From contig NC_015067.1 in the NCBI RefSeq assembly GCF_000196555.1, positions 270,001 to 302,000 of the forward strand: a stretch of DNA of 32,000 nt, written 5' to 3'. Both the position numbers and the translations under genes were made by a program. Below are positions 1 through 24,763 of the stretch, piece by piece. The stretch's first letter is position 1. Each line of letters begins with the position of its first letter. Source of the DNA: Bifidobacterium longum subsp. longum JCM 1217. Lineage in GTDB: Bacteria > Actinomycetota > Actinomycetes > Actinomycetales > Bifidobacteriaceae. The notes under the pieces are model-generated. The model was not told the origin of the DNA and ran no database searches. It saw only the letters and a program-made list of their open reading frames with translations.

Positions 1-11
1 GCGCCGGGGCT

Positions 12-908
12 GTGCCCGTGCATAAGTCCAAGGCGAAGGCGGCGCAGACCAGGCGAGGTCTGCTGTACGCACTTCCGGACTGGCTGATGATTATCGTCCT
101 GTTCTTCGTGCCGATTGTTCTACTGGTCGTCATGGCCTGCTCTCGTTGGAGCCTGCTGGGTGGCAACCGCGGCGTGAACTTCCCGGACAACTTCGTCAAG
201 GTGTTCGAGAACAAATTGTTCTGGCCCTCGATTTGGTTCACGCTCGAGTACACCGTGATCGTCACGATCTTCCTGTTGGTCCTTGGCCTGGGCATGGCCA
301 TGATCGTGCAGGAGAGCTCGAAGTGGAACAACGTGCTGCGTACCTGCTTCCTGCTGCCGTCCGCGACGGGCCTGGCGTCCGCGTCCCTGCTGTTCTACGC
401 CCTGTATTCCCCGCAGGTGGGCCCTGTCACCAAGATTCTGAGCTCGTTGGGCCTGATGCAGGAGGGTGGTTCGGTGCTGGCCACTGGCCAGTCGGCCCTG
501 TGGGCCACGATTATCGTGATTGTCTGGCGTTTCTCGGGCTACTACATGCTGCTGATGATGATCGGTCTGCAGGCCATCCCCGGTGATCTGTACGAGGCGG
601 CCCGCATGGACGGCGCCGGTTCCTGGCGTATCTTCCGCTCCATCACCCTGCCGCTGATGAAGCCGACCATCGTGATGTGCCTGGTCTACTGCGTGACCGG
701 CTCGATCCTCGCGTTCGATCAGTTCTTCATTCTGACCAAGGGTGGTCCGAACAACTCCACCATGACCGTGGTGCAGCTCATCTACAACTTCGCCTTCGAT
801 TCCAAGAAGGATCTGGGTATGGCCGCGGCGCTCTCGCTGATCGTGCTGGTGGCCCTGGTCATCATCAACTCCATCCAGATGCGCGGCATGCGCGACAACA
901 CCAAGTGA
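12..908 (+). CDS. ABC sugar transporter permease (MalF/UgpA-like, CUT1 family); start may lie upstream of the window
   Basis: 298-aa ORF with multiple hydrophobic spans. It carries the binding-protein-dependent transporter EAA loop (IPGDLYEAARMDGAGSWRIFRSITLPLMKP). The frame stays open to the window edge, so GTG at 12 is only a provisional start. Confidence 0.85.
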   Translation: MPVHKSKAKAAQTRRGLLYALPDWLMIIVLFFVPIVLLVVMACSRWSLLGGNRGVNFPDNFVKVFENKLFWPSIWFTLEYTVIVTIFLLVLGLGMAMIVQESSKWNNVLRTCFLLPSATGLASASLLFYALYSPQVGPVTKILSSLGLMQEGGSVLATGQSALWATIIVIVWRFSGYYMLLMMIGLQAIPGDLYEAARMDGAGSWRIFRSITLPLMKPTIVMCLVYCVTGSILAFDQFFILTKGGPNNSTMTVVQLIYNFAFDSKKDLGMAAALSLIVLVALVIINSIQMRGMRDNTK

Positions 909-928
909 GAAAGGGGAGGTAACACATT

Positions 929-1747
929 ATGACTACCCCATTGTGGAAGCGTATCATCGCCCGGATCCTCGAGGCCCTGCTGGCCATCATCTTCATCAGC
1001 CCGCTGGTCTGGGTCATCATCTGCTCGTTCAGCCCGCAGGCCGGTTCGGCCCAGTCCAAGGGCTGGGGCGTGGCCAACTACCTGACCCTGTTCGGTTATC
1101 AGGAAGGTCTGCCCAAGTACCTGTTCAACTCGGTAATCGTGACTCTGGTCGCGGTCGTGTTCTCCGTGGTCGTCTGTACGCTGGCCGGCTACTCGTTCTC
1201 CCGCTTCGACTACCCGGGCCGCAACCTCGGCTTCATGGTCACCCTGTCGATCCTGATGGTACCGTACGCCTCGCTGCTGATCCCGCTGATGGTCTGGTAC
1301 AAGCAGATCGGCCTGAACGACAGCCTGCTGGGCGTGGGCCTGGTCATCACCCTGTTCCAGCTGCCTATGAGCACGTTCATCATGCGCAACGCGTTCGACG
1401 CGATCCCCAAGGACATGGAGGAGGCCGCCATGGTCGACGGCTGCAACAGCCTCCAGGCCTTGTTCAAGATTCTGGTGCCGGTGGTCAAGCCTTCGATGGT
1501 TACGGTTGGCCTGCTCGCCTTCCTCGAGGCATGGAACAACTTCATGATTCCGCTGTACTTGAGCTCTTCGTCCAAGTCCACGCTGCCGCTGGCGATGGTG
1601 AACATGCGTCAGCAGACCATGGGCGTCATCGATTACGGTGCCACCGAGGCCGGCGTCGTGATCCTGCTGATTCCCTGCGCCATCCTGTTCCTCGCACTCC
1701 AGAAGTACTACGTCAAGGGCTTTATGGCTGGAGCCGTGAAGGGCTGA
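929..1747 (+). CDS. ABC sugar transporter permease (MalG/UgpE-like, CUT1 family)
   Basis: 272-aa ORF preceded by the RBS gaaaggggagg. Six hydrophobic spans and the EAA loop (IPKDMEEAAMVDGCNSLQALFKILVPVVKP). It starts 21 nt after the upstream permease stop. Confidence 0.9.
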   Translation: MTTPLWKRIIARILEALLAIIFISPLVWVIICSFSPQAGSAQSKGWGVANYLTLFGYQEGLPKYLFNSVIVTLVAVVFSVVVCTLAGYSFSRFDYPGRNLGFMVTLSILMVPYASLLIPLMVWYKQIGLNDSLLGVGLVITLFQLPMSTFIMRNAFDAIPKDMEEAAMVDGCNSLQALFKILVPVVKPSMVTVGLLAFLEAWNNFMIPLYLSSSSKSTLPLAMVNMRQQTMGVIDYGATEAGVVILLIPCAILFLALQKYYVKGFMAGAVKG

Positions 1748-1749
1748 TC

Positions 1750-3726
1750 ATGAACGTTACAATCACTTCCCCGTTCTGGAAGCGGCGTCGCGACCAGATT
1801 GTCGAATCCGTCATCCCCTACCAGTGGGGCGTGATGAACGACGAGATCGACACCACGGTGCCCGACGACCCGGCCGGCAACCAGCTGGCTGACAGCAAAA
1901 GCCATGCGGTTGCCAACCTGAAGGTTGCCGCCGGCGAATTGGACGACGAATTCCACGGCATGGTGTTCCAGGATTCCGACGTCTACAAGTGGCTTGAGGA
2001 AGCCGCCTACGCATTGGCATACCACCCGGATCCCGAGCTCAAGGCGCTGTGCGACCGCACGGTCGATCTCATCGCCCGCGCTCAGCAGTCGGACGGCTAT
2101 TTGGACACTCCGTACCAGATCAAGTCCGGCGTATGGGCCGACCGCCCGCGCTTCAGCCTGATTCAGCAGAGCCACGAGATGTATGTGATGGGTCACTACA
2201 TCGAGGCCGCCGTCGCCTACCATCAGGTGACCGGCAACGAGCAGGCCCTTGAAGTCGCCAAGAAGATGGCCGACTGCCTGGATGCCAACTTCGGCCCCGA
2301 AGAAGGCAAGATCCACGGCGCCGATGGTCATCCTGAGATCGAGCTCGCCCTCGCCAAGCTGTATGAAGAGACCGGTGAGAAGCGTTATCTGACGCTTTCC
2401 CAGTATCTCATCGACGTGCGCGGTCAGGATCCGCAGTTCTACGCCAAGCAGCTCAAGGCGATGAACGGCGACAACATCTTCCATGATCTCGGCTTCTACA
2501 AGCCCACCTACTTCCAGGCCGCCGAACCTGTGCGCGACCAGCAGACCGCGGATGGCCACGCCGTGCGCGTCGGCTACCTGTGCACTGGTGTGGCCCATGT
2601 GGGCCGACTGCTCGGCGATCAGGGGCTGATCGACACTGCCAAGCGTTTCTGGAAGAACATCGTCACCCGTCGCATGTATGTCACCGGCGCGATTGGTTCC
2701 ACCCACGTGGGCGAGTCGTTCACCTACGACTATGATCTGCCGAACGACACGATGTACGGTGAGACCTGTGCTTCCGTGGCTATGAGCATGTTCGCCCAGC
2801 AGATGCTCGACCTCGAGCCCAAGGGCGAATACGCCGACGTGCTGGAGAAGGAACTGTTCAACGGTTCCATTGCCGGCATCTCGCTCGACGGCAAGCAGTA
2901 CTACTACGTCAATGCACTGGAGACCACGCCTGACGGACTGGATAACCCGGACCGCCACCACGTGCTCTCCCACCGCGTCGACTGGTTCGGCTGCGCCTGC
3001 TGCCCGGCCAACATCGCCCGACTCATCGCCTCCGTGGACCGCTACATCTACACCGAGCGCGACGGCGGCAAGACCGTGCTGAGCCACCAGTTCATCGCCA
3101 ACACAGCCGAATTCGCTTCCGGCCTGACGGTCGAGCAGCGTTCGAACTTCCCGTGGGATGGCCATGTGGAATACACGGTGAGCCTGCCCGCCAGCGCCAC
3201 TGACAGCTCGGTCCGTTTCGGACTGCGCATCCCCGGCTGGTCGCGGGGCTCCTACACGCTGACCGTGAACGGCAAGCCCGCAGTGGGCTCACTGGAAGAC
3301 GGCTTCGTATACCTTGTGGTCAACGCCGGCGATACGTTGGAGATTGCGCTCGAGCTCGACATGTCCGTCAAGTTCGTGCGCGCCAACTCCCGCGTGCGCT
3401 CCGACGCCGGCCAGGTGGCCGTTATGCGCGGTCCGCTGGTCTACTGCGCCGAACAGGTCGATAATCCCGGTGATTTGTGGAACTATCGTCTGGCCGATGG
3501 CGTCACCGGTGCGGATGCCGCTGTGGCTTTCCAGGCCGACTTGCTGGGTGGAGTCGATACCGTTGATTTGCCGGCAGTGCGCGAGCACGCCGACGAGGAT
3601 GACGCGCCGCTGTACGTGGATGCCGACGAACCGCGTGCGGGCGAACCCGCGACGCTGCGCTTGGTGCCGTACTACTCGTGGGCCAACCGCGAGATAGGCG
3701 AGATGCGTGTCTTCCAGCGTCGATAA
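1750..3726 (+). CDS. hypBA1: GH127 beta-L-arabinofuranosidase (DUF1680 family), cytoplasmic
   Basis: ATG at 1750 lies 2 nt after the permease stop (tgatcATG) and gaaggg lies 7 nt upstream. The product is 658 aa with no signal peptide. Counting from this Met gives E322 (GESFTY), E338 and C340 (YGETCAS), and C415/C417/C418 (WFGCACCPAN). This is exactly the acid/base, Zn-ligand and Cys-nucleophile numbering I recall for B. longum HypBA1. The long in-frame extension back to 943 overlaps the permease and is not coding. Confidence 0.92.
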   Translation: MNVTITSPFWKRRRDQIVESVIPYQWGVMNDEIDTTVPDDPAGNQLADSKSHAVANLKVAAGELDDEFHGMVFQDSDVYKWLEEAAYALAYHPDPELKALCDRTVDLIARAQQSDGYLDTPYQIKSGVWADRPRFSLIQQSHEMYVMGHYIEAAVAYHQVTGNEQALEVAKKMADCLDANFGPEEGKIHGADGHPEIELALAKLYEETGEKRYLTLSQYLIDVRGQDPQFYAKQLKAMNGDNIFHDLGFYKPTYFQAAEPVRDQQTADGHAVRVGYLCTGVAHVGRLLGDQGLIDTAKRFWKNIVTRRMYVTGAIGSTHVGESFTYDYDLPNDTMYGETCASVAMSMFAQQMLDLEPKGEYADVLEKELFNGSIAGISLDGKQYYYVNALETTPDGLDNPDRHHVLSHRVDWFGCACCPANIARLIASVDRYIYTERDGGKTVLSHQFIANTAEFASGLTVEQRSNFPWDGHVEYTVSLPASATDSSVRFGLRIPGWSRGSYTLTVNGKPAVGSLEDGFVYLVVNAGDTLEIALELDMSVKFVRANSRVRSDAGQVAVMRGPLVYCAEQVDNPGDLWNYRLADGVTGADAAVAFQADLLGGVDTVDLPAVREHADEDDAPLYVDADEPRAGEPATLRLVPYYSWANREIGEMRVFQRR

Positions 3727-3863
3727 ATATCGGCGATATGCCGGCCTGCGCGCAACTGGCCGGCAAAAAAATACTTATGCCGCCATCGTCTGTAATAAGT
3801 CGATGACGGCATAGGCCGGATGTCAGTATCGATTGGAGCCGAAAACACATCCGGGGAATGAGG

Positions 3864-3906
3864 TCTCCTGTGCGGGGTAATACCCGTGCAGGAGATTATT
3901 TTTTAA
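3864..3906 (+). terminator. Rho-independent terminator downstream of hypBA1
   Basis: Stem tctcctgtgcgggg / acccgtgcaggaga (two G-U pairs) with loop taat, followed by ttattttttaatt. Confidence 0.7.
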
Positions 3907-3912
3907 TTATAT

Positions 3913-4020
3913 GCTCCTGCTGTGAGAGCTGTCGGCGGAGTCGACTGAGGGTGGTCATAAGCGGTACCGTGTAAGCCACCCTCAGTCTCGCTTTGCGAGC
4001 CAGCTCCCGCCAGCGGGAGC
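3913..4020. repeat. ~108-bp nested-palindrome intergenic repeat (REP/MITE-like), degenerate left arm
   Basis: An inner inverted repeat actgagggtggtc ... g(c)caccctcagt sits between outer arms gctcctgctgtgagagctgtc ... (c)cagctcccgccagcgggagc. It is related arm-for-arm to the element at 31740-31844. Confidence 0.8.
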
Positions 4021-4173
4021 CTGTTGGTTCCTGATTCAGCGAGGCTGAATCGGCGCGCCGTAGGTACTGCGACACGGCGAAACGCAGCAATGCTCTAATG
4101 CGAAAGTAAATGCGAAAACTGAGAAATTGCCGGGTTTTTGTTGTGTAAGATGGTTGATATCGCTGAGGGAAAG

Positions 4174-4202
4174 TTGCGAAACCGTATTCGCTCGGTTATG
4201 AT
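4174..4202 (+). promoter_or_regulatory. Candidate sigma-70-type promoter for hypBA2
   Basis: TTGCGA (4174-4179), a 17-bp spacer, then TATGAT (4197-4202). This predicts a ~215-nt leader before the ATG at 4425. Sequence-only prediction. Confidence 0.4.
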
Positions 4203-4233
4203 GTGGAATCAGCTTCGGTGAATTGCTCCAACC

Positions 4234-4256
4234 GTGATATCCATGGCGGATATCAC
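4234..4256 (+). promoter_or_regulatory. Perfect 9-bp inverted repeat, candidate operator downstream of the predicted hypBA2 promoter
   Basis: gtgatatcc-atggc-ggatatcac has perfect arms. It lies about +25 to +47 relative to the predicted transcription start. Confidence 0.35.
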
Positions 4257-4424
4257 ACCAGATTCACTGAAGATACTCATTCCGGTGAACCCAATAGCCA
4301 ATAAAGGAAACTGACGGAGAACGGGCTCTGCGGCCCAGCATCCACAGAAGAAGTCCTGGTCGCATAGATGCGACGTAGCCTGAGCGAAGACGCGAAAGAC
4401 CGGGGCGGAGAGGTCCAAGCAGGA

Positions 4425-7400
4425 ATGCATCACTCAACACGAAAGCGGTGGCTTGCGTCAATCGGCGCGGTTGCAGCGGTCGCCACACTGGCCACCGGCG
4501 GTGCAGTCACCGCGCAGGCAGCCGATGCGCCCGTCATCAAGAATGCGGATGTGGCATATCCGTCGTTCAAGGGATCTGATGATCCGATGAAGACGGCGGC
4601 GAACAACACCACATATAACCCTGCCGTCAGCTATCTGCAGGAGACATTCGATAACGACGTGAAGAACCTGGCCGGCATCGACACCGACCATGACTTCTGG
4701 ATCGATAAGATTCTCACCCGTACTGGTGCACAGCCAACTGGTAAAGGCACGAACGACAAGGGTGCTTACTCGTATGAAGGCTCCGACGGCAACAACTACC
4801 TGTTCACCCGTGGTCGCGCCGCCTACATGTACACGCACACGCCTAATCAGCTCGGTTTTGTGGGTGATACCGCCTACTGGGACCAGACCAGCAGGAGCGG
4901 CTTCACCGTTACCGTAAACGCTGATGGATCAAACCAGACCCTTAACGAAGACGCCTCCCAGCGCAAGCAGACGCCGAGCTACTTCACCTCCCTGTTCCAG
5001 ACCGGTGGCAAGAGCCTCAAGATCAAGGAAGTCAAGTACATCACCTACAACAACGTGATGGTTGCGAACCTCACCGTGGAAAGCACGCAGGACCGCGATG
5101 TCACACTGACCACGGCCTCGCCGTTCGCCGCCGAGGGTGCTGATGGTGCCACCGAACTTACTGGCCGCGTGAACGTCAAGAACAACCTGACGACCATCTA
5201 TCCGCGCTTCTCCGCCAACAACCAGGACGGTTCCAACTGGATCGTCAGCGGTGGCAAACTCACCAGCACGTTGAGCCTCAAGGCCAACGAACCGCAGACC
5301 GTCAAGATTCAGCTCGGCCTGATCGCCAACGAACTGCCTGACTCCACCAAGGAATATGAGGCCCGTTACACCGGCGACCTTAAGGATGCTGCCGCCTCCT
5401 ACAAGGATTCCGTGACCACCTACAACAAGTGGTGGGTCGATAACGCTCCCTACGTGGACACTCCGGAAGACAATATCGATAAGACCGTGGTCTACCGCTG
5501 GTGGCTGAGCCGTTTCAACATGCTCGACGCCAACATGCCTGGCAACACCTTCCAGTACCCGACCTCCATCGAGGGTGTGCTCGGCTACAACAACCAAATC
5601 GTGCTCACCTCCGGCATGTTCATGATGGACACCAAGTGGTTCCGCAACCCCGAGTACTCCTACGGCACCTGGCTTTCCGCCGGCGATACCGCCAAGAAGA
5701 GCAAGGCGGGCTATTACTACTACCACGACAATCCGGGCGACCCGGCCAACTGGAACCATAGCTACACGCAGTACATCACGCGCGCCGGCTGGGACTCCTA
5801 CAAGGTGCACGGCGGTCCGTCCACCGTGGCCGAGGAGCTGGCCGACCAGGGTGCCGAGGACGTGCAAGGTCTACTCGCTTCCAAGAGCGAGCCGGACAAC
5901 AACGACAACCAGAACAACAATGACAACAGCTTGATTGACTGGTCCTGGTGGTCGATGACCGGTAACGATGCCGACGCCGTTTCCTTCTCTGAGCCGGGTC
6001 GCTCCGGCCAGCGCATGGATCGCGCCGATGGTTCCGCCAATATGTGGGCCAACGCTAACGCGGCTGCTCAGGCATACAAGGCTGCTGGCGATACCGCCAA
6101 CGCCGAGAAGATGCAGGCCATCGCCGACAAGATCCAGAAAGAAGTCACCACTGAACTGTGGGACAAGTCCGACAACCTGCTCAAGCACAAGTGGCTGAAC
6201 GACGGTGCTTTCGCCAAGTACAAGGAGATCAATAACTACTACCCGTACTCCGAAGGCCTGATGCCTACCGGCAACGAAGATTACAACAAGGCTCTGCGCC
6301 TGTTCGAGGATTCCAACGAGTTCCCGATCTTCCCGTTCTTCACCGCCAACCAGGCGGACAAGGCGGCGCTGAACTTCCCCGGTTCCAACAACTTCTCCAT
6401 TATCAACGCACAGCCGCTGCTGCAGGTCTATTCAGCCGGCATCCGCAATTACGATGCAGCCAAGAATGGCTACATCACCAATGAGCAGTTCAAGAAGCTG
6501 CTGTACTGGGTGGCGTTCGCGCACTACCAGGGCGGCGATAACAACTACCCTGATCAAAACGAGTTCTGGAACGAGGACAACAACAACGTCGGCGATGTAA
6601 ACGGTGACGGCGTGATCAACAACCTCGACAAGAACCTTGACGCCGCACAGAACGGCGGCAAGATCACCTACCGCTCCTGGATCCACCACACCCAGCTCGG
6701 CACCACGAACTGGACGATGGTCGAGGACGTAGCCGGTATGGTGCCGCGCGAGGACAACAAGATTGAGCTAAACCCGATCGAAATCCCCGGTTGGAACTAC
6801 TTCACGGTAAACAACCTGCGCTACCACGATCAGGATGTCTCCATCGTATGGGACAAGGACGGCAGCCACTACGGTGGTCCTGCTGGCTACAGCCTGTACG
6901 TGGGCGGCAAGCTCGCCTTCACCTCCGACAAGCTGGCGCACCTCATCTATGACCCGGCTGCGGGAACGGTCGAGGTCAAGGACGATTCCAGTGCCCAGGT
7001 TACCGTCGGCGCCGAAGCCGTCAAGAACGTGAAGGCCGCCAATCAGGTTACCTTCAATGCCGATCAGCGCGTGACCGACCTGTTCGCCAAGTCCGGCACC
7101 AACGTCGACTCCGCCTCCAAGTCCACCACGAACGTGGCCAAGGACGCGGACGTGACCGGTACCACCTACGCCGAGAAGGACACCAACTACCCGGCCAAGA
7201 ACGCGGTGGACGGCAAGACCGTGATGGAATCGTTCTGGGGTACCAAGGGCTCTGAGAACAAGACCGACACGCTCAATATCAAGTTCAAGGACGGCAAGCA
7301 GAAGATCGACGACATCCGCTTGTACTTCTACCAGAGCTCGTCCAGCCAGACCATCTCCGGCTATGCCGAGCCCGCCAACTACAAGTTGGAGTACCAGAAG

Positions 7401-10256
7401 GATGACGGCACATGGGCCCCGATTGCGGATCAGGTGCGCACCCCGAACTACGCGGGCGCGAACTACAACCGTATCCAGTTCACTCCGGTGGAGACCACGA
7501 CCATCCGCGTCACCTTCACGCCGCAGGCCGGCATGGCCGTCGGTGTCAAGGAGATCGAAGCCTACAACACCGGTATCAAGGCTGACGGCACTTCCGAGAA
7601 CCAGACTCCGCAGGTGGATGCTTACGTGTCTTCCAGCACCTCATCTGGTGCCAAGCTCGTCGGTACGGTGAAGGATGACGGTCTGCCCGCAGAAGGCGAC
7701 GTCACCACCACATGGTCCCAGGTCTCCGGTCCGGAAGGCGGTACTGCGAAGTTCGTGGACGCCTCCGCTGCCAGCACCACCGTCACCTTCAACAAGGAGG
7801 GTGACTACGTCCTGAAGCTCACCGCTTCCGATGGCGAGAAGGAAGGCTCCAAGGAAATCACCGTTCACGGCATCCCCTCTGACGGTACCGTGAACGTAGC
7901 CCCGCAGTCGAGCGCCTCTGCCAGCTACACCAACGGCTACCAGCCGAAGGACAACGCCAAGAAGGTCATCGACGGTCAGGTGGTATACGCCAACACGCCG
8001 AACGAGACCTGGAACAACTGGGGCGACTCCACTGGTGTGGAGCCGTGGCTGCAACTGAAGTGGGCCGGCAAGGTGCCGCTGAAGAAGGCCAAGGTCTTCT
8101 TCTGGACCGATGGCGGTGGCGTGCCGATGGTCTCATCTTGGAAGCTCCAGTACGCTGACGCTGACGGTAACTGGCAGGATGTGAAACTGGCTGACGGCCA
8201 GTCCTACACGGTCAACCGGAACGAAGGCAACGAAGTGAAGTTCGCCGACGCCGTCGAAACCGACAAGCTGCGCGTGGTCTTCCCGAAGGGCGCCATCGTG
8301 GGTGCTTCCGAGTTCGAGGCGTACGCCATCGAGCCGGTGAGCGTGGACGAAGTCAACCGACTGGTGCAGACCGGTTCCAAGGCTGATGATCTGAAGCTGC
8401 CATCCACCGTGAGCGCCGTATACACCGACGGTTCTCGCCGTGACCTCGCCGTCACGTGGGGTAAGGTGACCGACGCTCAGCTGGCCGCCGATGCCGTATT
8501 CGATGTCAAGGGCACCGTCGCCGGTGCGCTGAACGGTACGGTTGCACACATCGCGGCTCGTTCCGATACCGCATCGCAGACCGTGGGTAATGCGCAGCCG
8601 GTTGAGCAGACCGTCTACCAGAACGCCAAGTCCATCGACCTGCCCGCCACGGTTCCGGTGAAGTTCCCGAACGGATACAACGACGACCGCAAGGTCACGT
8701 GGAAGGATGCCGACATCAAGGCCATCGACCTGACCAAGGTTGGTGACTACGAGGTGGCTGGTACCGTCGACGACGGTTCATCTTCCGCAGCTGCCAAGCT
8801 CACTGTCCACGTGGTTGCCGACCCGAACGGTTCCTCCACTCCGGAGCCTGAGCCTGAGCCGTTGGTCGGTTGGATTGAAGGCAAGGCGACCAGGACCACC
8901 ATTTCGCCTGATTCCGAGGCGACCTGGTCACCGGCCGAAGGCAAGCTCAACGACGGCGTAGTCGTCGATGATACTTGGCCGACCACGGATGATCAGAACG
9001 TCAACGACAAGGTCTGGGGTTCTTGGGGCAAGGCAAAGGACGGCATGTACGCCCAGTACGACTTCGGTCAGTCCGTGACCATTGACCAGAGCCGCGCCCA
9101 GTTCTGGGCCAACTTCGCTGAGACTGACGATTCGAAGGGTGGTCTGGAAGTCCCGGACGCTTGGAAGATTCAGTACCTCGCCGAGGATGGTTCTTGGAAG
9201 GACGTCGAGCCCACCGAGGATTACACCGTCGTGCGTAATTCGCCGGCTTCTCGTGCGGATACCGATGCCAAGGGTTGGAGCGCTGTGACCTTCAAGCCGG
9301 TCACCACCAAGTCGCTGCGACTCGTGCTCACTCCGTACACCGGCAGCAGCACCTTCGGGGCCGCCGTGGCCGAGTGGGGCGTGCATGGTATTGACGGCAC
9401 CGAGCCTGAACCTACCCCGGTCGACAAGACCGCGCTCGAGTCGGCTCTTGACACAGCCAACGGCCTCGATGCAAGCCGCTACACCGCCGCTTCATGGGCT
9501 GAGTTCCAGCAAATCATTGACGCTGCCCAGGCTGTGTACGACGATGCCAACGCCACCGCAGAACAGGTCGCCGAGCAGGTGACCAAGCTCGAGGACGGCC
9601 AGAAGGCACTCGTTGCGCTCGCCACCGACGTGGAGAAGTCCACGTTGCAGGCGGCCATCGATGCGGCCAAAGCCGAGGCCGCTTCCGGCAAGTACACGGA
9701 TAAGAGTGTCGAGGCCTTGAACAAGGCCATCGAGGCTGCGGAAGGTGTGCTCAAGGTCGGTGAGGTCGGTGAGGTCACTCAGGCCGCCGTCCAGGAAGCG
9801 TCCGCTTCGCTGAACAAGGCCGTCAAGGCCTTGGAAGAGAAGCCCGCCGCCGAAACGGTGAAGAAGGAGTCCCTCGAGGCTTCCATCGAGCAGGCCAAGA
9901 AGGCTGACAAGTCGAAGTACACCGAGGAGGCATGGCAGGCTCTGCAGAGCCAGATTGCCGCCGCTCAGAAGGTGTACGACGACAAGGATGCCAAGCAGGC
10001 CGATGTCGATGCCGCACAGGATGCCCTTGACAAGGCATTTTGGGCCACCAAGGTTGAGCAGAAGCCCGGCTCCCAGCAGCCTGGTGTGACCGACACTGAT
10101 AAGGATGATAAGGACAACAAGGGTGATCGTGTGCCTCCGACTGGTGCCGCGGTTTCCGTAGTTGCTGCGGCTGCCGTGCTGCTCACCGCCGCAGGCGTGA
10201 CCATCCTGAAGCGTCGCCAGTCCGGCGACCACGGTTCGGCTCGCCACTCGGCCTGA
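4425..10256 (+). CDS. hypBA2: Secreted, cell-wall-anchored GH121 beta-L-arabinobiosidase, multidomain (1943 aa)
   Basis: The ATG at 4425 has ggagagg 13 nt upstream and gives a Sec signal peptide (MHHSTRKRWLASIGAVAAVATLATGGAVTAQA/AD). The 1943-aa length matches my recollection of HypBA2. The large N-terminal catalytic region is followed by F5/8-type-C (CBM32-like) modules, an Ig/PKD-like module, Big_4-like repeats (LPSTVSAVYTDGSRRDLAVTWGKV; LPATVPVKFPNGYNDDRKVTWKD) and three FIVAR-like helical repeats. The C-terminal sorting signal is VPPTG + hydrophobic helix + KRRQS. The ORF-track start at 4368 has no RBS or signal-peptide logic. Confidence 0.88.
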   Translation: MHHSTRKRWLASIGAVAAVATLATGGAVTAQAADAPVIKNADVAYPSFKGSDDPMKTAANNTTYNPAVSYLQETFDNDVKNLAGIDTDHDFWIDKILTRTGAQPTGKGTNDKGAYSYEGSDGNNYLFTRGRAAYMYTHTPNQLGFVGDTAYWDQTSRSGFTVTVNADGSNQTLNEDASQRKQTPSYFTSLFQTGGKSLKIKEVKYITYNNVMVANLTVESTQDRDVTLTTASPFAAEGADGATELTGRVNVKNNLTTIYPRFSANNQDGSNWIVSGGKLTSTLSLKANEPQTVKIQLGLIANELPDSTKEYEARYTGDLKDAAASYKDSVTTYNKWWVDNAPYVDTPEDNIDKTVVYRWWLSRFNMLDANMPGNTFQYPTSIEGVLGYNNQIVLTSGMFMMDTKWFRNPEYSYGTWLSAGDTAKKSKAGYYYYHDNPGDPANWNHSYTQYITRAGWDSYKVHGGPSTVAEELADQGAEDVQGLLASKSEPDNNDNQNNNDNSLIDWSWWSMTGNDADAVSFSEPGRSGQRMDRADGSANMWANANAAAQAYKAAGDTANAEKMQAIADKIQKEVTTELWDKSDNLLKHKWLNDGAFAKYKEINNYYPYSEGLMPTGNEDYNKALRLFEDSNEFPIFPFFTANQADKAALNFPGSNNFSIINAQPLLQVYSAGIRNYDAAKNGYITNEQFKKLLYWVAFAHYQGGDNNYPDQNEFWNEDNNNVGDVNGDGVINNLDKNLDAAQNGGKITYRSWIHHTQLGTTNWTMVEDVAGMVPREDNKIELNPIEIPGWNYFTVNNLRYHDQDVSIVWDKDGSHYGGPAGYSLYVGGKLAFTSDKLAHLIYDPAAGTVEVKDDSSAQVTVGAEAVKNVKAANQVTFNADQRVTDLFAKSGTNVDSASKSTTNVAKDADVTGTTYAEKDTNYPAKNAVDGKTVMESFWGTKGSENKTDTLNIKFKDGKQKIDDIRLYFYQSSSSQTISGYAEPANYKLEYQKDDGTWAPIADQVRTPNYAGANYNRIQFTPVETTTIRVTFTPQAGMAVGVKEIEAYNTGIKADGTSENQTPQVDAYVSSSTSSGAKLVGTVKDDGLPAEGDVTTTWSQVSGPEGGTAKFVDASAASTTVTFNKEGDYVLKLTASDGEKEGSKEITVHGIPSDGTVNVAPQSSASASYTNGYQPKDNAKKVIDGQVVYANTPNETWNNWGDSTGVEPWLQLKWAGKVPLKKAKVFFWTDGGGVPMVSSWKLQYADADGNWQDVKLADGQSYTVNRNEGNEVKFADAVETDKLRVVFPKGAIVGASEFEAYAIEPVSVDEVNRLVQTGSKADDLKLPSTVSAVYTDGSRRDLAVTWGKVTDAQLAADAVFDVKGTVAGALNGTVAHIAARSDTASQTVGNAQPVEQTVYQNAKSIDLPATVPVKFPNGYNDDRKVTWKDADIKAIDLTKVGDYEVAGTVDDGSSSAAAKLTVHVVADPNGSSTPEPEPEPLVGWIEGKATRTTISPDSEATWSPAEGKLNDGVVVDDTWPTTDDQNVNDKVWGSWGKAKDGMYAQYDFGQSVTIDQSRAQFWANFAETDDSKGGLEVPDAWKIQYLAEDGSWKDVEPTEDYTVVRNSPASRADTDAKGWSAVTFKPVTTKSLRLVLTPYTGSSTFGAAVAEWGVHGIDGTEPEPTPVDKTALESALDTANGLDASRYTAASWAEFQQIIDAAQAVYDDANATAEQVAEQVTKLEDGQKALVALATDVEKSTLQAAIDAAKAEAASGKYTDKSVEALNKAIEAAEGVLKVGEVGEVTQAAVQEASASLNKAVKALEEKPAAETVKKESLEASIEQAKKADKSKYTEEAWQALQSQIAAAQKVYDDKDAKQADVDAAQDALDKAFWATKVEQKPGSQQPGVTDTDKDDKDNKGDRVPPTGAAVSVVAAAAVLLTAAGVTILKRRQSGDHGSARHSA

Positions 10257-10282
10257 CCCGCAACGGAGTCATTCTGCCGAGT

Positions 10283-10316
10283 GAGCCCCCTCACAGAGGG
10301 GGCTCTAGCCTTTTCC
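10283..10316 (+). terminator. Rho-independent terminator after hypBA2
   Basis: Stem gagccccctc / gagggggctc with loop aca, followed by tagccttttcc. Confidence 0.7.
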
Positions 10317-10360
10317 TTCTACCCATCATTACTCTTTTCACTCACTCAATGAGGAGCACT

Positions 10361-13300
10361 ATGAGTTTCCATGTATCCGCGCAATCGGTTCGCGCGGTGG
10401 CCGGTGGACTCGTCGCCGCAGCGACATTGCTGTCAGGCCTTGCCCTTGCGCCGACCGCAATGGCCGCCGATTCAGCCACCGCTGACAACGCGCCCAGCGT
10501 TGCCGGTCACGCGTATAACGAACTGCCGTATAACAATCCTGATGTCACCGTCACCCAAATCGACAATAGCGCACTGCCCAGCTACATGCGCAACCCCATC
10601 GGGCAGAACGAGGGTATTGACACCCCGAACGATCTTTCGCAGAACTACTACTCTGCAGATGCATCCGCGCTGAGCTATGACGGCAAACTCTTCGTCTTCA
10701 CCGGTCACGATGAGGCTTCGCCCGACTACGGCTCCTTCAACATGAAGGACTGGGGCGTATACGTCACCGATGAAGACGGCCTGAATCAAGGCAAATGGAC
10801 ACATTACAAGACCATCGCCAAGGCAGGCCTGTTCAGCTGGGCCACCGGCGATGGCGCGTACGCCGGCCAAGTCGTAGCCGACGATAACGGCACCCCGAGC
10901 GACACTTCCGATGATTGGTTCTACTACTACGTGCCGGTGAAGGACAAGGCTTCTGAGGCGGCTGGACAGGACCCGTTCGCCATCGGCGTGGCCAAGTCGA
11001 AGAGTCCGCTCGGCCCGTGGAAGGATGCCATCGGCAAGCCGCTGCTCACCACATCGCAAACCCAGATTGAAACCATCGATCCGGCATTCTTTGTGGACGA
11101 GGATGGCACCGGATATTTGCACTTTGGTACGTTCGGCACTCAGCTCGCCATCAAGATGAAGAAGGACGCCACAACCGGCCGCACCTCATACACCGAGGTG
11201 GAAACCAAGGCTGATGGCACCACGCCGAACCTCCACACCATGAAGGACGCGGACAGCAACGCGAACGGCCCGAAGGGATTCTTCGAGGCGGCGTGGGTGT
11301 TCCGTAAGGGCGATACCTATTACAACGTGTACGACGGCGGTAAGCCCGGTTCGGGCACGGCCACCTGCGTGGAATCGAACTATCAAGCTTGCATCCAGTA
11401 CTCCACTTCCGACAGCCCGCTCGGCCCATGGAAGTACCAAGGCGTAATCGTGCCTTCTGGCTCGGCCACCACGATGCACCCCTCGGTGCTCCAGTTCGGC
11501 GACAAATGGTATGTGACCTATCACACCGGCGACAAGGAAGGCGGCACCGATTTCCGCCGTGCCGTGTGCATTGATGAAGTCGATTGGACCGCCGACGGCC
11601 AGATGGTTTCCACCGCCCATCCAACCAAGGCCGAGAAAACGCAGCCCTCCACCAACGTGGCTCCGTACGCAAAGGTGAGCGCCACGTTCACTGAAACGCC
11701 TGCTTGGAAGGGTTCGGTGAACGACGGCCGTGTGTTGCAAACCGCTGTGGTCCCGCCGAATCACTGGACCAACTACCGTTCTATCCCGCAATCGCAGTCC
11801 GGCGATTCTCTGGTCTACCAATGGGATGGCACTGTGCGCGTCAACTCGTCTAAGGTTTGGTTCGACGTGGATTCCAACGCTCTGCGCGCGCCCGCCTCGT
11901 GGAAGATTCAGTACTTGGACGCGGACGGCACATGGAAGGATGTCACCAACCCGAGTGCCTATACAACGACCACAGGCAAGGCCAACCCCAACGCCGTCAC
12001 CTTCGATGCGGTGACCACTACTGCCTTAAAGCTCGACATGACCGGTCAAGCTGTGGATGGCGGCTATGCCTCCGTGGCCGTTGCTGAATGGGAAGTCGGC
12101 TCCGACTCCAGCGAATCGCCGGCAATCACTGCGCCGAAGAGCGTGACCACCGCCACCGGTACTGCGCCTACTCTGCCGGCCACAGTGGATGTGAAGTACG
12201 GGAACCCAACCGTTGCCTCCCCAGTAATTTGGCGTCCAGTTGATGCTTCCTCGTATGCCAAGGTCGGTTCGTTTACGGCCTACGGCGTGGTCGCCGGCGT
12301 GCCCGGTGAGGCAAGCGAGCAGGGCAATGTGTCGGTAAATGTCACCGTGCAGGACGGCTACCAGCCTGCCGCTGATACCACGAAGCCGACTGTAACCGTT
12401 GCCGTTACTGCTAACGCAGGCAATAGCGAGTGGCTCACCACCGCTCCGTTCGCCACCGTGCAGGCCACGGACGACACCGCACCTATCGCCAAGCTGGAGA
12501 TTTCCGCTGATCAAGGCAAGAGCTGGACCACCATCGACGCGAATGCAAACGCGGCCATTGCCACGCTTTCCCAGCAGGGCGATGTCGAAGTGTGGGCTCG
12601 CGCCACCGATCAGGCCGGCAACGTTTCCGACGTGGCCAAGGCCGGCGGCAAGGTGGACTCCGCCGCGCCAACCGTGACCGCCGCCGCCGATAAGGAGGAG
12701 CGCACGCTGACCTTGACCGCTGATGACGGCACCGGTTCCGGTGTCGCATCAATTGAATACCGCATTGGCACAGACGGTCAATGGGCCACGTACAGCAAGC
12801 CGATTGCTGCACCGAGCGCGTCGCGCGCCACCGTGTACTACCGCGCCACCGATAAGGCCGGCAACGTGTCCGCTTCGGCGAAAACCGACATTCCATCCGA
12901 CACTTCCGTGCCGCTGACCGGCTACATTGAGGGCGATGCCACCGCCACCGATGTGGACGGCAAGGCATCCGGCTGGGTCAAGGGTGCCGCCGCGTTGAAC
13001 GACGGCAAGATCATTCCCGATATCACCATTGCCAACGAGGATGTCTGGGGCACTTGGCCCAACACCGGTGAGATGCGCCTCGACTACGAGTGGGACCGTG
13101 AAGTGACTATCGACTCTAGCCGCGTGCAATTCACCTCGGATGATGGCGGATTGGGTATTCCGGCATCGTGGGAATTGCAGTACTGGGACGCCTTGGCGAA
13201 CAACGGTGCCGGCAACTTCGTGGATATTCCCGACGCCACCTACACTGTGACCGCCAATTCACCGTCTGCTGGCTGGGCCACCGGCGATGCCAAGGGGTGG

Positions 13301-14077
13301 TCTGATGGCACGTGGAACACTCCGGTCAAGACTACCAAGTTGCGTATGGTTATCACGTCCGGCTCGGCTTCTCCGGCTGTTGCCGAATGGCAGGTTCATG
13401 CCATTGACGACAGTACGCCTGAGCCGCCTGAGCCCACACCGATCGACAAGACCGAGCTCAAGCAGGCGCTCGCTGACTCGCCTAAGGCTGACGATGCCTC
13501 CAAGTACACCGAGACTTCATGGGCGGAGTACGCGGCGGTATTGGATTCGGCGCAGCAGGTGTATAAGGCTGAGGATGCCACCGAAGCTGCGGTGGTGGAT
13601 GCCGCAACCCAGCTGAAGCAGGCAGCGAAGAAGCTGGTGCTTGTAGCTACGGTGCAAGATCGTGCCGCGCTGAGCGCTCAGCTCGATGCCGCTGCTGCCG
13701 TGGATCGCACAAAGTGGACTGATGAATCGCTGGCCGTGCTTGATTCGGCAGTCGCTATGGCGAATGCGCTGACGAGTGATGGTCAGGCCGCCCAGTCTGA
13801 CGTACAGGCTGCGACTGAGGCAATCAGCGATGCCATCGCGGGTCTGGTTGAGAAGAGCACCACGAAGCCTGGCCAGGGTGGCGATAAGCCCGGTTCCGGC
13901 ACGGACAAGCCCAACCAAGGCAACGATTCCAACCAGAACAAGGGTGATGCAGACTCCGGCAAGCACAAGAAGATACCTGACACCGGTGCAGCCGTGCTTG
14001 GTGTTGGCATCCTCGCCGTGGTACTTGCTGTTGCGGGTGTAATCATCCTCAAGCGCCGCAAGTCCGGTACCTGCTAG
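10361..14077 (+). CDS. hypAA: Secreted, cell-wall-anchored GH43 alpha-L-arabinofuranosidase, multidomain
   Basis: GAGGAG lies at 10351-10356, just upstream of the ATG at 10361; the alternative ATG at 10349 has no RBS. Signal peptide ...LALAPTAMA/AD. GH43 five-bladed-propeller signatures are present (IDPAFFVDEDGTGYLHFG; FFEAAWVFRKGDTYY). These are followed by F5/8-type-C modules, a Big_4-like repeat, two Ig-like repeats, two FIVAR-like repeats, and the sorting signal IPDTG + hydrophobic helix + KRRKS. Confidence 0.85.
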   Translation: MSFHVSAQSVRAVAGGLVAAATLLSGLALAPTAMAADSATADNAPSVAGHAYNELPYNNPDVTVTQIDNSALPSYMRNPIGQNEGIDTPNDLSQNYYSADASALSYDGKLFVFTGHDEASPDYGSFNMKDWGVYVTDEDGLNQGKWTHYKTIAKAGLFSWATGDGAYAGQVVADDNGTPSDTSDDWFYYYVPVKDKASEAAGQDPFAIGVAKSKSPLGPWKDAIGKPLLTTSQTQIETIDPAFFVDEDGTGYLHFGTFGTQLAIKMKKDATTGRTSYTEVETKADGTTPNLHTMKDADSNANGPKGFFEAAWVFRKGDTYYNVYDGGKPGSGTATCVESNYQACIQYSTSDSPLGPWKYQGVIVPSGSATTMHPSVLQFGDKWYVTYHTGDKEGGTDFRRAVCIDEVDWTADGQMVSTAHPTKAEKTQPSTNVAPYAKVSATFTETPAWKGSVNDGRVLQTAVVPPNHWTNYRSIPQSQSGDSLVYQWDGTVRVNSSKVWFDVDSNALRAPASWKIQYLDADGTWKDVTNPSAYTTTTGKANPNAVTFDAVTTTALKLDMTGQAVDGGYASVAVAEWEVGSDSSESPAITAPKSVTTATGTAPTLPATVDVKYGNPTVASPVIWRPVDASSYAKVGSFTAYGVVAGVPGEASEQGNVSVNVTVQDGYQPAADTTKPTVTVAVTANAGNSEWLTTAPFATVQATDDTAPIAKLEISADQGKSWTTIDANANAAIATLSQQGDVEVWARATDQAGNVSDVAKAGGKVDSAAPTVTAAADKEERTLTLTADDGTGSGVASIEYRIGTDGQWATYSKPIAAPSASRATVYYRATDKAGNVSASAKTDIPSDTSVPLTGYIEGDATATDVDGKASGWVKGAAALNDGKIIPDITIANEDVWGTWPNTGEMRLDYEWDREVTIDSSRVQFTSDDGGLGIPASWELQYWDALANNGAGNFVDIPDATYTVTANSPSAGWATGDAKGWSDGTWNTPVKTTKLRMVITSGSASPAVAEWQVHAIDDSTPEPPEPTPIDKTELKQALADSPKADDASKYTETSWAEYAAVLDSAQQVYKAEDATEAAVVDAATQLKQAAKKLVLVATVQDRAALSAQLDAAAAVDRTKWTDESLAVLDSAVAMANALTSDGQAAQSDVQAATEAISDAIAGLVEKSTTKPGQGGDKPGSGTDKPNQGNDSNQNKGDADSGKHKKIPDTGAAVLGVGILAVVLAVAGVIILKRRKSGTC

Positions 14078-14105
14078 TCCCACTCGCTCGGCCTAGCATC
14101 ACCAA

Positions 14106-14142
14106 GCCCCCGCGCATGAACAGCGGGGGCTTCACTTTTGTT
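14106..14142 (+). terminator. Rho-independent terminator after hypAA
   Basis: Stem gcccccgc / gcgggggc with loop gcatgaaca, followed by ttcacttttgtt. Confidence 0.65.
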
Positions 14143-16130: not shown

Positions 16131-16186
16131 GCGTTCGCATCCTTTGTTTGAGTCGCTGTGTGATTTACGCCTTAACCAGTGTACAA

Positions 16187-16220
16187 GCACCCCGCCGCAG
16201 CGAACGCCACGGCGGGGTGC
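16187..16220 (-). terminator. Strong stem-loop (11-bp perfect stem) after the 16252-16734 gene; probable terminator without a U-tract
   Basis: gcaccccgccg-cagcgaacgcca-cggcggggtgc. No T-run follows on the minus strand and only a weak one (ttatttcg) on the plus strand. Tail-less terminators are common in Actinobacteria. Confidence 0.45.
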
Positions 16221-16251
16221 TTATTTCGTAAGAGTGTTGAGATTGCCGAAA

Positions 16252-16734
16252 TTACTCGGAGAACTCGACACTGACCTTATTGTCTTTGATGGTGAAGTTG
16301 CCGTTGACCTCCTTGCCTTCAAGCGTGTACGTCAGCTGGGCGCTCACGGTGCCATCGGCATTATTGGAGGTCTGCGAGATGCGCGCGTTGGTGATGCGCG
16401 TGTTCTCGCCCGAGGATGCCTTGCTGGTCAGCAGTGCGCGCTGGTTCGTATTCACGTGAGGATCGGCGATGGTGTTGGCCTTGTCGTAGTTGCCGGAGGA
16501 GATGGCGGCCACATAGCTGTTCGCAACGCTCTTCGCGCTGAACACGGCGGAAGACAGCACGCCATACACGATACCGAACAGCACGAGGAAGCCGGCCACG
16601 GCACCAACGATGATGAAGATTTTCTTCTGTTGCTCATTCATGGTGGTGGAGGTCGCGCCAGGTGCGGCTACCGGTGCCGCTCCGGGAGTGATGGGAGCCG
16701 CGGGCTGCGTGGGCTTGGCCAAAACGGTGGACAT
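16252..16734 (-). CDS. Single-pass membrane protein of unknown function (Pro/Ala-rich N-terminus, extracytoplasmic beta-rich domain)
   Basis: 160-aa ORF with one TM helix (IFIIVGAVAGFLVLFGIVYGVL). It is followed by a ~100-aa domain resembling small DUF4878/NTF2-like anchored proteins. An internal start at MNEQQKK is possible. Confidence 0.6.
   Translation of the reverse strand: MSTVLAKPTQPAAPITPGAAPVAAPGATSTTMNEQQKKIFIIVGAVAGFLVLFGIVYGVLSSAVFSAKSVANSYVAAISSGNYDKANTIADPHVNTNQRALLTSKASSGENTRITNARISQTSNNADGTVSAQLTYTLEGKEVNGNFTIKDNKVSVEFSE

Positions 16735-22054: not shown

Positions 22055-24763
<2,709 letters not shown>

What the first reader, a model, noticed from the sequence alone, without database searches (positions are those of the whole stretch)
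12..14077. Division-of-labour locus for hydroxyproline-linked beta-L-arabinooligosaccharide (extensin) degradation: GH43 + GH121 on the cell wall, ABC import, GH127 in the cytoplasm
Seen in sequence:
- Two giant enzymes (10361-14077 and 4425-10256) each have a Sec signal peptide, carbohydrate-binding/Ig/FIVAR modules and an LPXTG-like anchor.
- The 658-aa enzyme at 1750-3726 has no signal peptide. It is translationally coupled (2-nt gap) to two CUT1 permeases.
- Each unit ends in its own terminator.

Established knowledge (from memory): the characterised B. longum hypAA/hypBA2/hypBA1 pathway works in three steps. GH43 trims the alpha-1,3-Araf cap of Ara4-Hyp. GH121 then releases the disaccharide Araf-beta1,2-Araf. 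That disaccharide is imported and split by the GH127 enzyme.

Beta-L-arabinofuranosidic linkages and these two GH families were unknown before that work. A naive annotation would call 1750-3726 a DUF1680 hypothetical and 4425-10256 a 'large surface protein'. No ATPase or solute-binding gene lies in the window. The binding protein is presumably upstream, and the ATPase is shared in trans, as is usual for bifidobacterial CUT1 systems.
Basis: partly seen in the sequence, partly recalled or inferred. Interest (0 to 1): 0.8.

Follow-up and report, generated by a model that had tools for sequence, protein, structure and literature searches.

The report
Known B. longum extensin-arabinoside degradation locus

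Summary
- BAJ65881.1: HypBA1, GH127, PDB 3WRE
- BAJ65882.1: HypBA2, GH121, PDB 6M5A
- BAJ65883.1: HypAA, GH43

Window 1-11747 is 100% identical to a complete B. longum chromosome. In that chromosome the missing parts lie just upstream: the beta-arabinobiose-binding protein (PDB 6LCE) and the LacI-family regulator BauR. The published BauR1 operator sits at 4174-4191 on a promoter-like site in front of hypBA2.

HypAA removes the alpha-1,3 cap. HypBA2 releases beta-Ara2. The ABC system imports it. Cytoplasmic HypBA1 splits it.

Corrections:
- The first permease starts 19 nt before the window, so the start at 12 is an edge artefact.
- Only the hypBA1 terminator is canonical. The other two are GC hairpins with weak T tails.
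- The anchors read VPPTG and IPDTG, and the literature calls them transmembrane or membrane anchors.
- Current Pfam and NCBIfam name these proteins, so they are no longer "DUF1680/hypothetical".

HypAA's own biochemistry is still cited only as unpublished data. Interest is low.

The parts
1..908 (+). bauB (BLLJ_0209), first ABC permease of the beta-arabinobiose importer. It is 5'-truncated by the window edge; the true start is 19 nt upstream of base 1.
   Evidence: Pfam BPD_transp_1, 77 bits. Best NCBIfam similarities are UgpA, GlcT and MalF, below their equivalog cut-offs. Called as 308 aa at 9054-9980 in L004, which is 100% identical to the window.
929..1747 (+). bauC (BLLJ_0210), second ABC permease (MalG/UgpE-like).
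   Evidence: Pfam BPD_transp_1. NCBIfam similarities to GlcU, MalG and UgpE. A GGGGAGG ribosome-binding site lies in the 20-nt gap after bauB. The exact protein occurs on many B. longum contigs.
1750..3726 (+). hypBA1 (BLLJ_0211), cytoplasmic GH127 beta-L-arabinofuranosidase with a cysteine nucleophile. It starts 2 nt after the bauC stop codon.
   Evidence: Pfam GH127 catalytic, middle and C-terminal domains. 100% identical to PDB 3WRE over 658 aa, including Glu322, Glu338, Cys340, Cys417 and Cys418 (catalytic Glu322/Cys417, the other Zn-ligand numbers from my own knowledge). Exact match to BAJ65881.1. No N-terminal hydrophobic segment.
3862..3897 (+). Intrinsic terminator closing the bauABC-hypBA1 operon.
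   Evidence: 15-bp stem followed by ATTTTTT. -27.6 kcal/mol, z -6.46.
4174..4202 (+). BauR1 (LacI-family) operator TTGCGAAACCGTATTCGC at 4174-4191, overlapping a sigma-70-like promoter (TTGCGA, 17 nt, TATGAT) for hypBA2.
   Evidence: Promoter-like site. The site matches the one published for B. longum NCC2705 hypBA2 at -250. It is the only match in the window. Related sites lie upstream of bauA in L004 and in orthologous loci.
4425..10256 (+). hypBA2 (BLLJ_0212), surface GH121 beta-L-arabinobiosidase, 1943 aa. Signal peptide 4425-4520. Crystallised catalytic region 4521-7106. F5/8 type C from about 7173, PKD-like module, Big_4 around 8595-8771, FIVAR around 9423-9611. VPPTG, hydrophobic stretch and KRR tail at 10131-10253.
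   Evidence: NCBIfam HypBA2 equivalog, 3622 bits against a cut-off of 3200. PDB 6M5A at 1989 bits, equal to the self-score. Domains. Termini. Exact match to BAJ65882.1.
10283..10305 (+). GC-rich hairpin between hypBA2 and hypAA. It could be a weak terminator or a processing site, and read-through is possible.
   Evidence: 10-bp stem. The 56-nt segment 10270-10325 that contains it folds at -21.9 kcal/mol, z -3.14. The tail UAGCCUUUUCCUUC is interrupted. The consensus terminator scan did not call it.
10361..14077 (+). hypAA (BLLJ_0213), surface GH43 alpha-L-arabinofuranosidase, 1238 aa. Signal peptide 10361-10465. GH43 domain about 10628-11617. Weak F5/8-like hit (below the Pfam cut-off), Big_4, OmpL47-type barrels and FIVAR. 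IPDTG, hydrophobic stretch and KRRK tail at 13973-14074.
   Evidence: Pfam GH43, 85.8 bits against a cut-off of 32.2. Aligns with GH43 structures 8HCJ and 3QED, with the ADP, IDP..D.DG and FxEA motifs conserved. Domains. Termini. Exact match to BAJ65883.1.
14104..14132 (+). Terminator-like hairpin after hypAA.
   Evidence: 10-bp GC stem followed by CACUUUUGUUC. The 56-nt segment 14095-14150 that contains it folds at -22.1 kcal/mol, z -4.07.

Best explanation

How it works:
1. Outside the cell, surface-anchored HypAA (GH43) removes the alpha-1,3-linked terminal arabinofuranose of Ara4-Hyp.
2. [quoted passage not shown]
3. Beta-Ara2 is captured by the binding protein BLLJ_0208, which is encoded just upstream of the window.
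4. It is imported through the BauB/BauC permeases, probably energised by a shared MalK-type ATPase encoded elsewhere in the genome.
5. In the cytoplasm, the cysteine glycosidase HypBA1 (GH127) splits it into two L-arabinose.

Regulation: the LacI-family repressor BauR1, also encoded upstream, is predicted to hold both transcription units (bauABC-hypBA1 and hypBA2, with or without hypAA) through 20-bp palindromic operators.

What is shown here: the sequence identities, the domain content, the topogenic signals, the gene order, the operator and the terminators.

What is taken from published biochemistry and structures: the HypBA1 and HypBA2 activities and the beta-Ara2 specificity of the binding protein.

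What is inferred: the HypAA step (unpublished data plus a Xanthomonas homologue), the trans ATPase, BauR repression, and the type of anchor.
For: - Exact-sequence identity of the three enzymes to BAJ65881.1, BAJ65882.1 and BAJ65883.1 of JCM 1217.
- HypBA1 is 100% identical to PDB 3WRE.
- HypBA2 matches 6M5A at self-score level and passes the NCBIfam HypBA2 equivalog cut-off.
- GH127, GH43 and permease Pfam domains.
- The window is 100% identical to L004. There a binding protein matching the sequence of PDB 6LCE (923.7 bits over residues 28-441) and a divergent LacI-family gene sit immediately upstream.
- The BauR1 operator at 4174-4191 matches the published NCC2705 site and is accompanied by paired sites upstream of bauA.
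- The two large enzymes have signal peptides and C-terminal anchors, and HypBA1 has neither.
- The pathway is described in PMC7263609, PMC6085000, PMC5928203, PMC8106489 and PMC10850190.
- The gene order bauR / bauABC-hypBA1 / hypBA2 is kept in other Bifidobacterium species, and a similar gene set in a different arrangement occurs in a Luteimicrobium genome.
Against: Nothing contradicts it. Weak points:
- HypAA's activity on Ara4-Hyp is cited only as 'unpublished data', and I could not determine its GH43 subfamily.
- No ATPase gene lies in the window or in the 9 kb upstream, so the energising subunit is assumed.
- hypAA is absent from some otherwise complete loci (B. saguini and B. imperatoris), so it is an optional module.
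- No expression data were examined.
Confidence: 0.95

Rival explanations
1. The two large enzymes are not covalently attached to the cell wall by sortase. They are simply held in the cytoplasmic membrane by a C-terminal transmembrane helix, as the published descriptions say. On this view the 'LPXTG-like anchor on the cell wall' part of the finding is wrong in detail.
For: - The pentapeptides are VPPTG and IPDTG, not LPXTG.
- Orthologues carry LTDTG, LSATG, IGNTG or AATG, without the proline.
- Pfam Gram_pos_anchor is below its cut-off for HypAA (14.4 against 20 bits) and absent for HypBA2.
- The papers speak of a 'C-terminal transmembrane region' or 'membrane anchor region'.
Against: - The three-part layout (xxxTG, about 20 hydrophobic residues, an Arg/Lys-rich tail at the very C-terminus) is that of a sortase sorting signal.
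- The TG immediately before the hydrophobic stretch is kept in the bifidobacterial-type orthologues whose C-terminus carries a hydrophobic anchor, even where the linker has diverged. The Luteimicrobium proteins (L019) have no such tail.
- From my own knowledge, class E sortases of Actinobacteria accept LAXTG-type motifs.
Confidence: 0.5
2. hypBA2 and hypAA are a single operon driven from the BauR-controlled promoter at about 4174-4202. The hairpin at 10283-10305 would be an attenuator or mRNA-stability element rather than a terminator, so the locus would have two units rather than the reader's three.
For: - The regulon reconstruction lists 'hypBA2 - BL0420 - BL0419' as one operon, and the text says BLLJ_0213 is in the same operon as hypBA2.
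- There is no promoter-like hexamer pair and no BauR-like site in the 104-nt gap.
- The hairpin's T tail is interrupted.
Against: - The hairpin is GC-rich and more stable than nearly all shuffles of its segment (2 of 200 shuffles fold at least as well).
- The promoter scan covers only sigma-70 consensus sites.
- hypAA comes and goes independently of hypBA2 between species.
Confidence: 0.55
3. HypAA's physiological substrate is some other alpha-L-arabinofuranoside (arabinan, arabinoxylan or arabinogalactan-protein side chains), and its position next to hypBA2 is incidental.
For: - Its closest solved relatives are annotated as beta-xylosidases or as an arabinan-type alpha-L-arabinofuranosidase (8HCJ, 3QED).
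- The direct assay is unpublished.
- The gene is missing from some loci.
Against: - The group that studies this cluster states that the B. longum enzyme cleaves only the alpha-1,3 bond of Ara4-Hyp.
- The Xanthomonas homologue XeHypAA was shown to do exactly that and nothing else.
- HypBA2 cannot act on Ara4-Hyp without decapping.
- Where hypAA is present it sits directly downstream of hypBA2, in B. aesculapii, B. pullorum, a MAG and Luteimicrobium.
Confidence: 0.07

Closest known systems
[quoted passage not shown]
   Same: The window is this cluster. The three enzymes are exact-sequence matches to the JCM 1217 proteins. Gene order, regulator, binding protein and operator are as published.
   Different: Nothing of substance differs. 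The window lacks BLLJ_0208, bauR and the first 19 nt of BLLJ_0209, because it starts inside the operon.
Xanthomonas euvesicatoria XeHypBA1, XeHypBA2 and XeHypAA (genes XCV2724, XCV2728 and XCV2729)
   Same: The same three-enzyme logic on Ara4-Hyp, demonstrated in vitro with all three recombinant enzymes.
   Different: Per the paper, the Xanthomonas extracellular enzymes lack the C-terminal membrane or wall anchor, and the organism does not use L-arabinose as a carbon source. It is a Gram-negative plant pathogen, not a gut commensal.
BauR2/BauT-type bifidobacterial loci (hypBA1 with a GPH symporter)
   Same: A cytoplasmic GH127 enzyme fed by a dedicated beta-arabinooligosaccharide transporter under a LacI-family repressor.
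   Different: They use a secondary transporter instead of an ABC system. The reconstructed BauR2 regulons do not include hypBA2, so those strains may depend on other organisms or other enzymes to release the disaccharide.

Membership tests
GH127 (HypBA1-type beta-L-arabinofuranosidase) | GH127 catalytic, middle and C-terminal domains | tested here: met
   PF07944 at 410 bits, PF20736 at 70.7 bits and PF20737 at 86.1 bits, all above their cut-offs.
GH127 (HypBA1-type beta-L-arabinofuranosidase) | Cys417 nucleophile, Glu322 acid/base and a Zn site made of Cys3-Glu | tested here: met
   100% identity to PDB 3WRE over residues 1-658. E322, E338, C340, C417 and C418 can be read in the alignment. 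Catalytic roles of Cys417 and Glu322 and the (Cys)3-type Zn site are from PMC8106489; the numbers of the other Zn ligands are from my own knowledge.
GH127 (HypBA1-type beta-L-arabinofuranosidase) | Hydrolysis of beta-Ara2 to L-arabinose | not testable with these tools
   Published for the identical protein.
GH121 (HypBA2 beta-L-arabinobiosidase) | Full-length match to the curated HypBA2 equivalog model | tested here: met
   NF041578.1 at 3622.3 bits against a cut-off of 3200.
GH121 (HypBA2 beta-L-arabinobiosidase) | Catalytic (alpha/alpha)6 region identical or close to the solved GH121 structure | tested here: met
   6M5A scores 1989 bits over query residues 52-913. The self-score of that fragment is 1987.6 bits, and each substitution costs about 3 bits.
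GH121 (HypBA2 beta-L-arabinobiosidase) | Release of beta-Ara2 from Ara3-Hyp | not testable with these tools
   Published for the identical protein BAJ65882.1.
GH43 (HypAA alpha-L-arabinofuranosidase) | GH43 five-bladed propeller domain | tested here: met
   PF04616 at 85.8 bits against a cut-off of 32.2. PDB 8HCJ at E 4e-44 and 3QED at E 7e-34.
GH43 (HypAA alpha-L-arabinofuranosidase) | Catalytic Asp (base), Asp (pKa modulator) and Glu (acid) | tested here: met
   The motifs Y-S-A-D, I-D-P-A-F-F-V-D-E-D-G and F-F-E-A-A-W align with the A-D-P, I-D-P..D.D-G and (Y/F)-x-E motifs of 8HCJ and 3QED. Assigning these motifs to the catalytic triad rests on general knowledge of GH43, not on a structure of this protein.
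GH43 (HypAA alpha-L-arabinofuranosidase) | CAZy GH43 subfamily | not testable with these tools
   No dbCAN or CAZy subfamily models were available.
GH43 (HypAA alpha-L-arabinofuranosidase) | Specific cleavage of Araf-alpha1,3-Araf in Ara4-Hyp | not testable with these tools
   Stated as unpublished data for the identical protein. Demonstrated for the homologue XeHypAA.
CUT1-type ABC sugar importer (BauABC) | Two MalF/MalG-type permeases | tested here: met
   BPD_transp_1 in both. The best NCBIfam similarities are UgpA/GlcT/MalF for the first and GlcU/MalG/UgpE for the second, all below the equivalog cut-offs.
CUT1-type ABC sugar importer (BauABC) | A cognate MalE-type binding protein | tested here: met
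   It is not in the window. In L004, which is identical to the window, it lies at 7441-8766 with SBP_bac_1 and matches PDB 6LCE at 923.7 bits.
CUT1-type ABC sugar importer (BauABC) | An ATPase subunit | tested here: not met
   No LSGGQ or Walker A motif in any frame of the window, and no ATPase gene among those called in the 9 kb upstream. A shared MalK in trans is inferred from PMC9599254.
BauR1 regulon | An adjacent LacI-family regulator and palindromic operators before bauA and hypBA2 | tested here: met
   LacI-family gene at L004 5933-6955 on the minus strand. Operator-like sites at L004 7276 and 7317 and at window 4174. Chance expectation is about 0.08 sites per 32 kb.
Sortase (LPXTG) cell-wall-anchored proteins | LPXTG pentapeptide, hydrophobic segment and positively charged tail | tested here: inconclusive
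   The motifs are VPPTG and IPDTG, followed by a hydrophobic stretch and KRR. Gram_pos_anchor scores 14.4 bits, below its 20-bit cut-off. The orthologues that carry such a hydrophobic anchor keep only xxxTG.

The most novel reading that the evidence does not exclude
HypBA2 and HypAA, and by extension the many B. longum surface glycosidases with the same FIVAR-plus-C-terminal tail, may be covalently linked to peptidoglycan. This would happen through an actinobacterial class E-type sortase acting on degenerate [LIV]xxTG signals (VPPTG, IPDTG, LTDTG, LSATG). The literature instead describes them as held by a transmembrane helix. In addition, the hairpin at 10283-10305 may act as a partial terminator that sets the HypBA2:HypAA ratio.
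Probability: 0.35. Interest if true: 0.2.

Novelty: already known. Interest (0 to 1): 0.08.

Why it matters
The system matters biologically. It defined GH121 and GH127, revealed a cysteine-nucleophile glycosidase, and explains how a gut bifidobacterium feeds on plant extensin side chains. All of that is already published for exactly these proteins. This re-examination adds only small points:
- It places the published BauR operator on a promoter-like site.
- It notes that the anchor type and the hypBA2-hypAA transcript structure are still untested.
- It notes that HypAA's biochemistry has not appeared in the papers I could read.

Tried and rejected
- The genome-contig scan with the HypBA2 catalytic region returned 13 loci from other species but not B. 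longum itself. The organism was identified instead by exact protein look-up and by identity to locus L004.
- Rfam at gathering thresholds found only a tRNA-Lys at 18877-18950 and nothing in the locus.
- The consensus terminator scan found no more sites than shuffled sequence and caught only one of the three hairpins. I folded the other two separately.
- I looked for a structured leader between the hypBA2 promoter and its start codon (4205-4430). The z-score is -2.07, which is not convincing.
- I looked for an ABC ATPase by motif in all six frames and found none.
- I considered whether the 4368 and 10349 ATGs are the real starts. I rejected them because the deposited proteins (1943 and 1238 aa) and the ribosome-binding sites fit 4425 and 10361.
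- I ran no further search on HypAA against XeHypAA, because the protein is already identical to BLLJ_0213.
Full report
**What is in the sequence**

The + strand of window 1-14077 carries five long ORFs in one direction.
- Two of them (12-908 and 929-1747) are binding-protein-dependent ABC permeases (Pfam BPD_transp_1). Their best NCBIfam similarities are to the sugar-type pairs UgpA/MalF/GlcT and GlcU/MalG/UgpE.
- The 658-aa ORF at 1750-3726 starts 2 nt after the TGA of the second permease. It matches all three GH127 domains.
- A canonical terminator follows at 3862-3897.
- After a gap of about 700 nt come a 1943-aa ORF (4425-10256) and a 1238-aa ORF (10361-14077). They are separated by 104 nt.
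- Both large proteins have signal-peptide-like N-termini ending AQA|A and AMA|A.
- Both carry F5/8 type C, Big_4 and FIVAR modules. The F5/8 hit passes the Pfam cut-off in HypBA2 but is below it in HypAA.
- Both end in a pentapeptide (VPPTG or IPDTG), then about 20 hydrophobic residues, then a KRR tail.
- HypBA1 has no hydrophobic N-terminus.

**Identity of the genes**

- The 658-aa protein is 100% identical over its full length to the crystallised B. longum HypBA1 (PDB 3WRE and 3WKW). This includes Cys417 and Glu322 and the Zn ligands.
- The 1943-aa protein passes the NCBIfam equivalog 'beta-L-arabinobiosidase HypBA2' at 3622 bits against a cut-off of 3200.
- Its residues 33-894 match the GH121 crystal construct 6M5A at 1989 bits. 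That equals the fragment's self-score of 1987.6 bits, and one substitution costs about 3 bits.
- The 1238-aa protein has a GH43 domain. It aligns with GH43 structures with the three catalytic-motif positions conserved.
[quoted passage not shown] BAJ65881 is BLLJ_0211, and HypBA2 and HypAA are BLLJ_0212 and BLLJ_0213.
- Window 1-11747 is 100% identical to a complete B. longum chromosome, locus L004 (CP049767.1).

**What lies just outside the window**

In L004 the genes immediately upstream are as follows.
- A divergent LacI-family regulator of 340 aa.
- A 441-aa SBP_bac_1 binding protein. It matches PDB 6LCE, the beta-arabinobiose-binding protein, at 923.7 bits.
- The first permease, called as 308 aa, which begins 19 nt before window base 1.

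No ABC ATPase motif exists in any frame of the window, and none is among the upstream genes. A shared MalK ATPase is described for B. longum subsp. infantis (PMC9599254), so energising in trans is a reasonable but untested inference.

**Regulation and transcript structure**

- The published BauR1 regulon lists one site for hypBA2 in strain NCC2705 (TTGtGAAAcCGtaTTCGCtc, at -250) and two sites before bauA.
- The window has TTGCGAAACCGTATTCGC at 4174-4191, which is 251 nt before the 4425 start. This is the only such match in 32 kb, and it coincides with a promoter-like TTGCGA-17-TATGAT.
- L004 has the two bauA sites. Orthologous loci in other species keep them, and several also keep a site before hypBA2.
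- The hairpins after hypBA2 (10283-10305) and hypAA (14104-14132) are stable but have poor T tails. The literature treats hypBA2 and BLLJ_0213 as one operon. Whether hypAA is a separate unit is therefore open.

**Mechanism**

HypAA removes the alpha-1,3 cap of Ara4-Hyp. HypBA2 releases beta-Ara2 from Ara3-Hyp. The binding protein specifically binds beta-Ara2 for ABC import. Intracellular HypBA1 hydrolyses it to L-arabinose (PMC7263609; PMC6085000; PMC8106489).

The HypBA1 and HypBA2 activities, the binding-protein specificity and the structures are experimental. The HypAA activity is cited as unpublished data in 2018 and 2020 and listed without a reference in 2024. The Xanthomonas homologue XeHypAA was shown to do exactly this.

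**Conservation**

- The order bauR / bauABC-hypBA1 / hypBA2 is kept in B. saguini, B. imperatoris, B. phasiani, B. pullorum and several MAG contigs. The Luteimicrobium genome has a similar gene set in a different arrangement, with the transporter and GH127 genes on the opposite strand.
- hypAA is optional. In the B. saguini locus (L007) hypBA2 is followed directly by the yggS homologue, and hypAA is also missing downstream of hypBA2 in the B. imperatoris contig (L008). Where present, it lies directly after hypBA2.

**Points where the finding needs trimming**

1. The coordinate 12 is an edge artefact.
2. 'Each unit ends in its own terminator' is only one-third canonical.
3. 'LPXTG-like' is acceptable, but the motif is degenerate. 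Orthologues keep only xxxTG, and the literature calls the segment a transmembrane or membrane anchor. Sortase attachment is untested.
5. Current Pfam and NCBIfam models already name these proteins.

**Verdict**

Novelty is 'already known' and interest is low.

Noticed in passing
L002:10820-10981 and L003:10820-10981 (window junction 1747/1750): Two complete B. longum genomes carry a GC-rich insertion of about 160 nt between the bauC stop codon and the hypBA1 start codon. It contains a hairpin (GGCTGGGAGCCC...GGGCTCCCAGC). In those strains the 2-nt coupling seen in the window is absent.
   Followed up: partly
L006:13088-15254 (window about 3934-3937): One B. longum metagenome chromosome has two tandem transposase genes inserted between the hypBA1 terminator and the hypBA2 promoter. 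Their domains (HTH_38 plus rve) suggest an IS30-like element. The flanks overlap by about 4 nt.
   Followed up: partly
L001:13497-19330 and L005:13497-19200: hypBA2 is called as two ORFs (883+1061 aa and 1782+122 aa) in two metagenome-assembled chromosomes. These are either frameshifted pseudogenes or assembly errors.
   Followed up: no
L007:15600-16630 and L008: hypAA is absent in B. saguini and in the B. imperatoris contig. In L007, hypBA2 is followed directly by the yggS homologue, so hypAA behaves as a presence/absence module.
   Followed up: partly
L017:3187-7488 and L017:10001-15589: B. saguinibicoloris has two GH121 genes in the same locus. One is 84% and the other 50% identical to the HypBA2 catalytic region, so there may be a second specificity.
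   Followed up: no
L010, L011, L012, L015, L016, L018: MAG contigs labelled Anaerovoracaceae, Senegalimassilia, Dysosmobacter, Acidaminococcaceae and Slackia carry this locus at 71-92% protein identity to B. longum and 58-65% GC. This probably reflects binning contamination by bifidobacterial contigs, or else horizontal transfer.
   Followed up: no
window 3943-3987 and 4003-4020: The non-conserved part of the hypBA1-hypBA2 intergenic region holds a 12-bp inverted repeat (GACTGAGGGTGG ... CCACCCTCAGTC, 21-nt loop) and a second GC hairpin. Similarity to B. saguini resumes only at about 4098.
   Followed up: no
window 4205-4424: The promoter and operator lie about 220-250 nt before the hypBA2 start codon, which implies a long leader. 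It contains a long imperfect hairpin (about 4211-4277), but its folding energy is not clearly unusual (z -2.07).
   Followed up: partly
window 22055-24763 (-): A 902-aa P-type ATPase has an N-terminal cupredoxin-like domain and a C-terminal YHS domain. This is a less common set of metal-binding domains for a presumably copper-transporting pump.
   Followed up: no
window 16081-16881 (+), 21174-21869 (-), 26620-27249 (+): These ORFs of 209-266 aa have no Pfam or NCBIfam hit. Some may not be genes. The surrounding genes are housekeeping: yggS, prs, ssb, tRNA-Lys, ptsI, rmuC, a SpoU methylase, and amidase-family (GatA-like) and gatB genes.
   Followed up: no
literature (PMC5928203): The regulon paper swaps the family labels, giving 'GH121 HypBA1' and 'GH127 HypBA2', in both its text and its supplementary tables.
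   Followed up: yes
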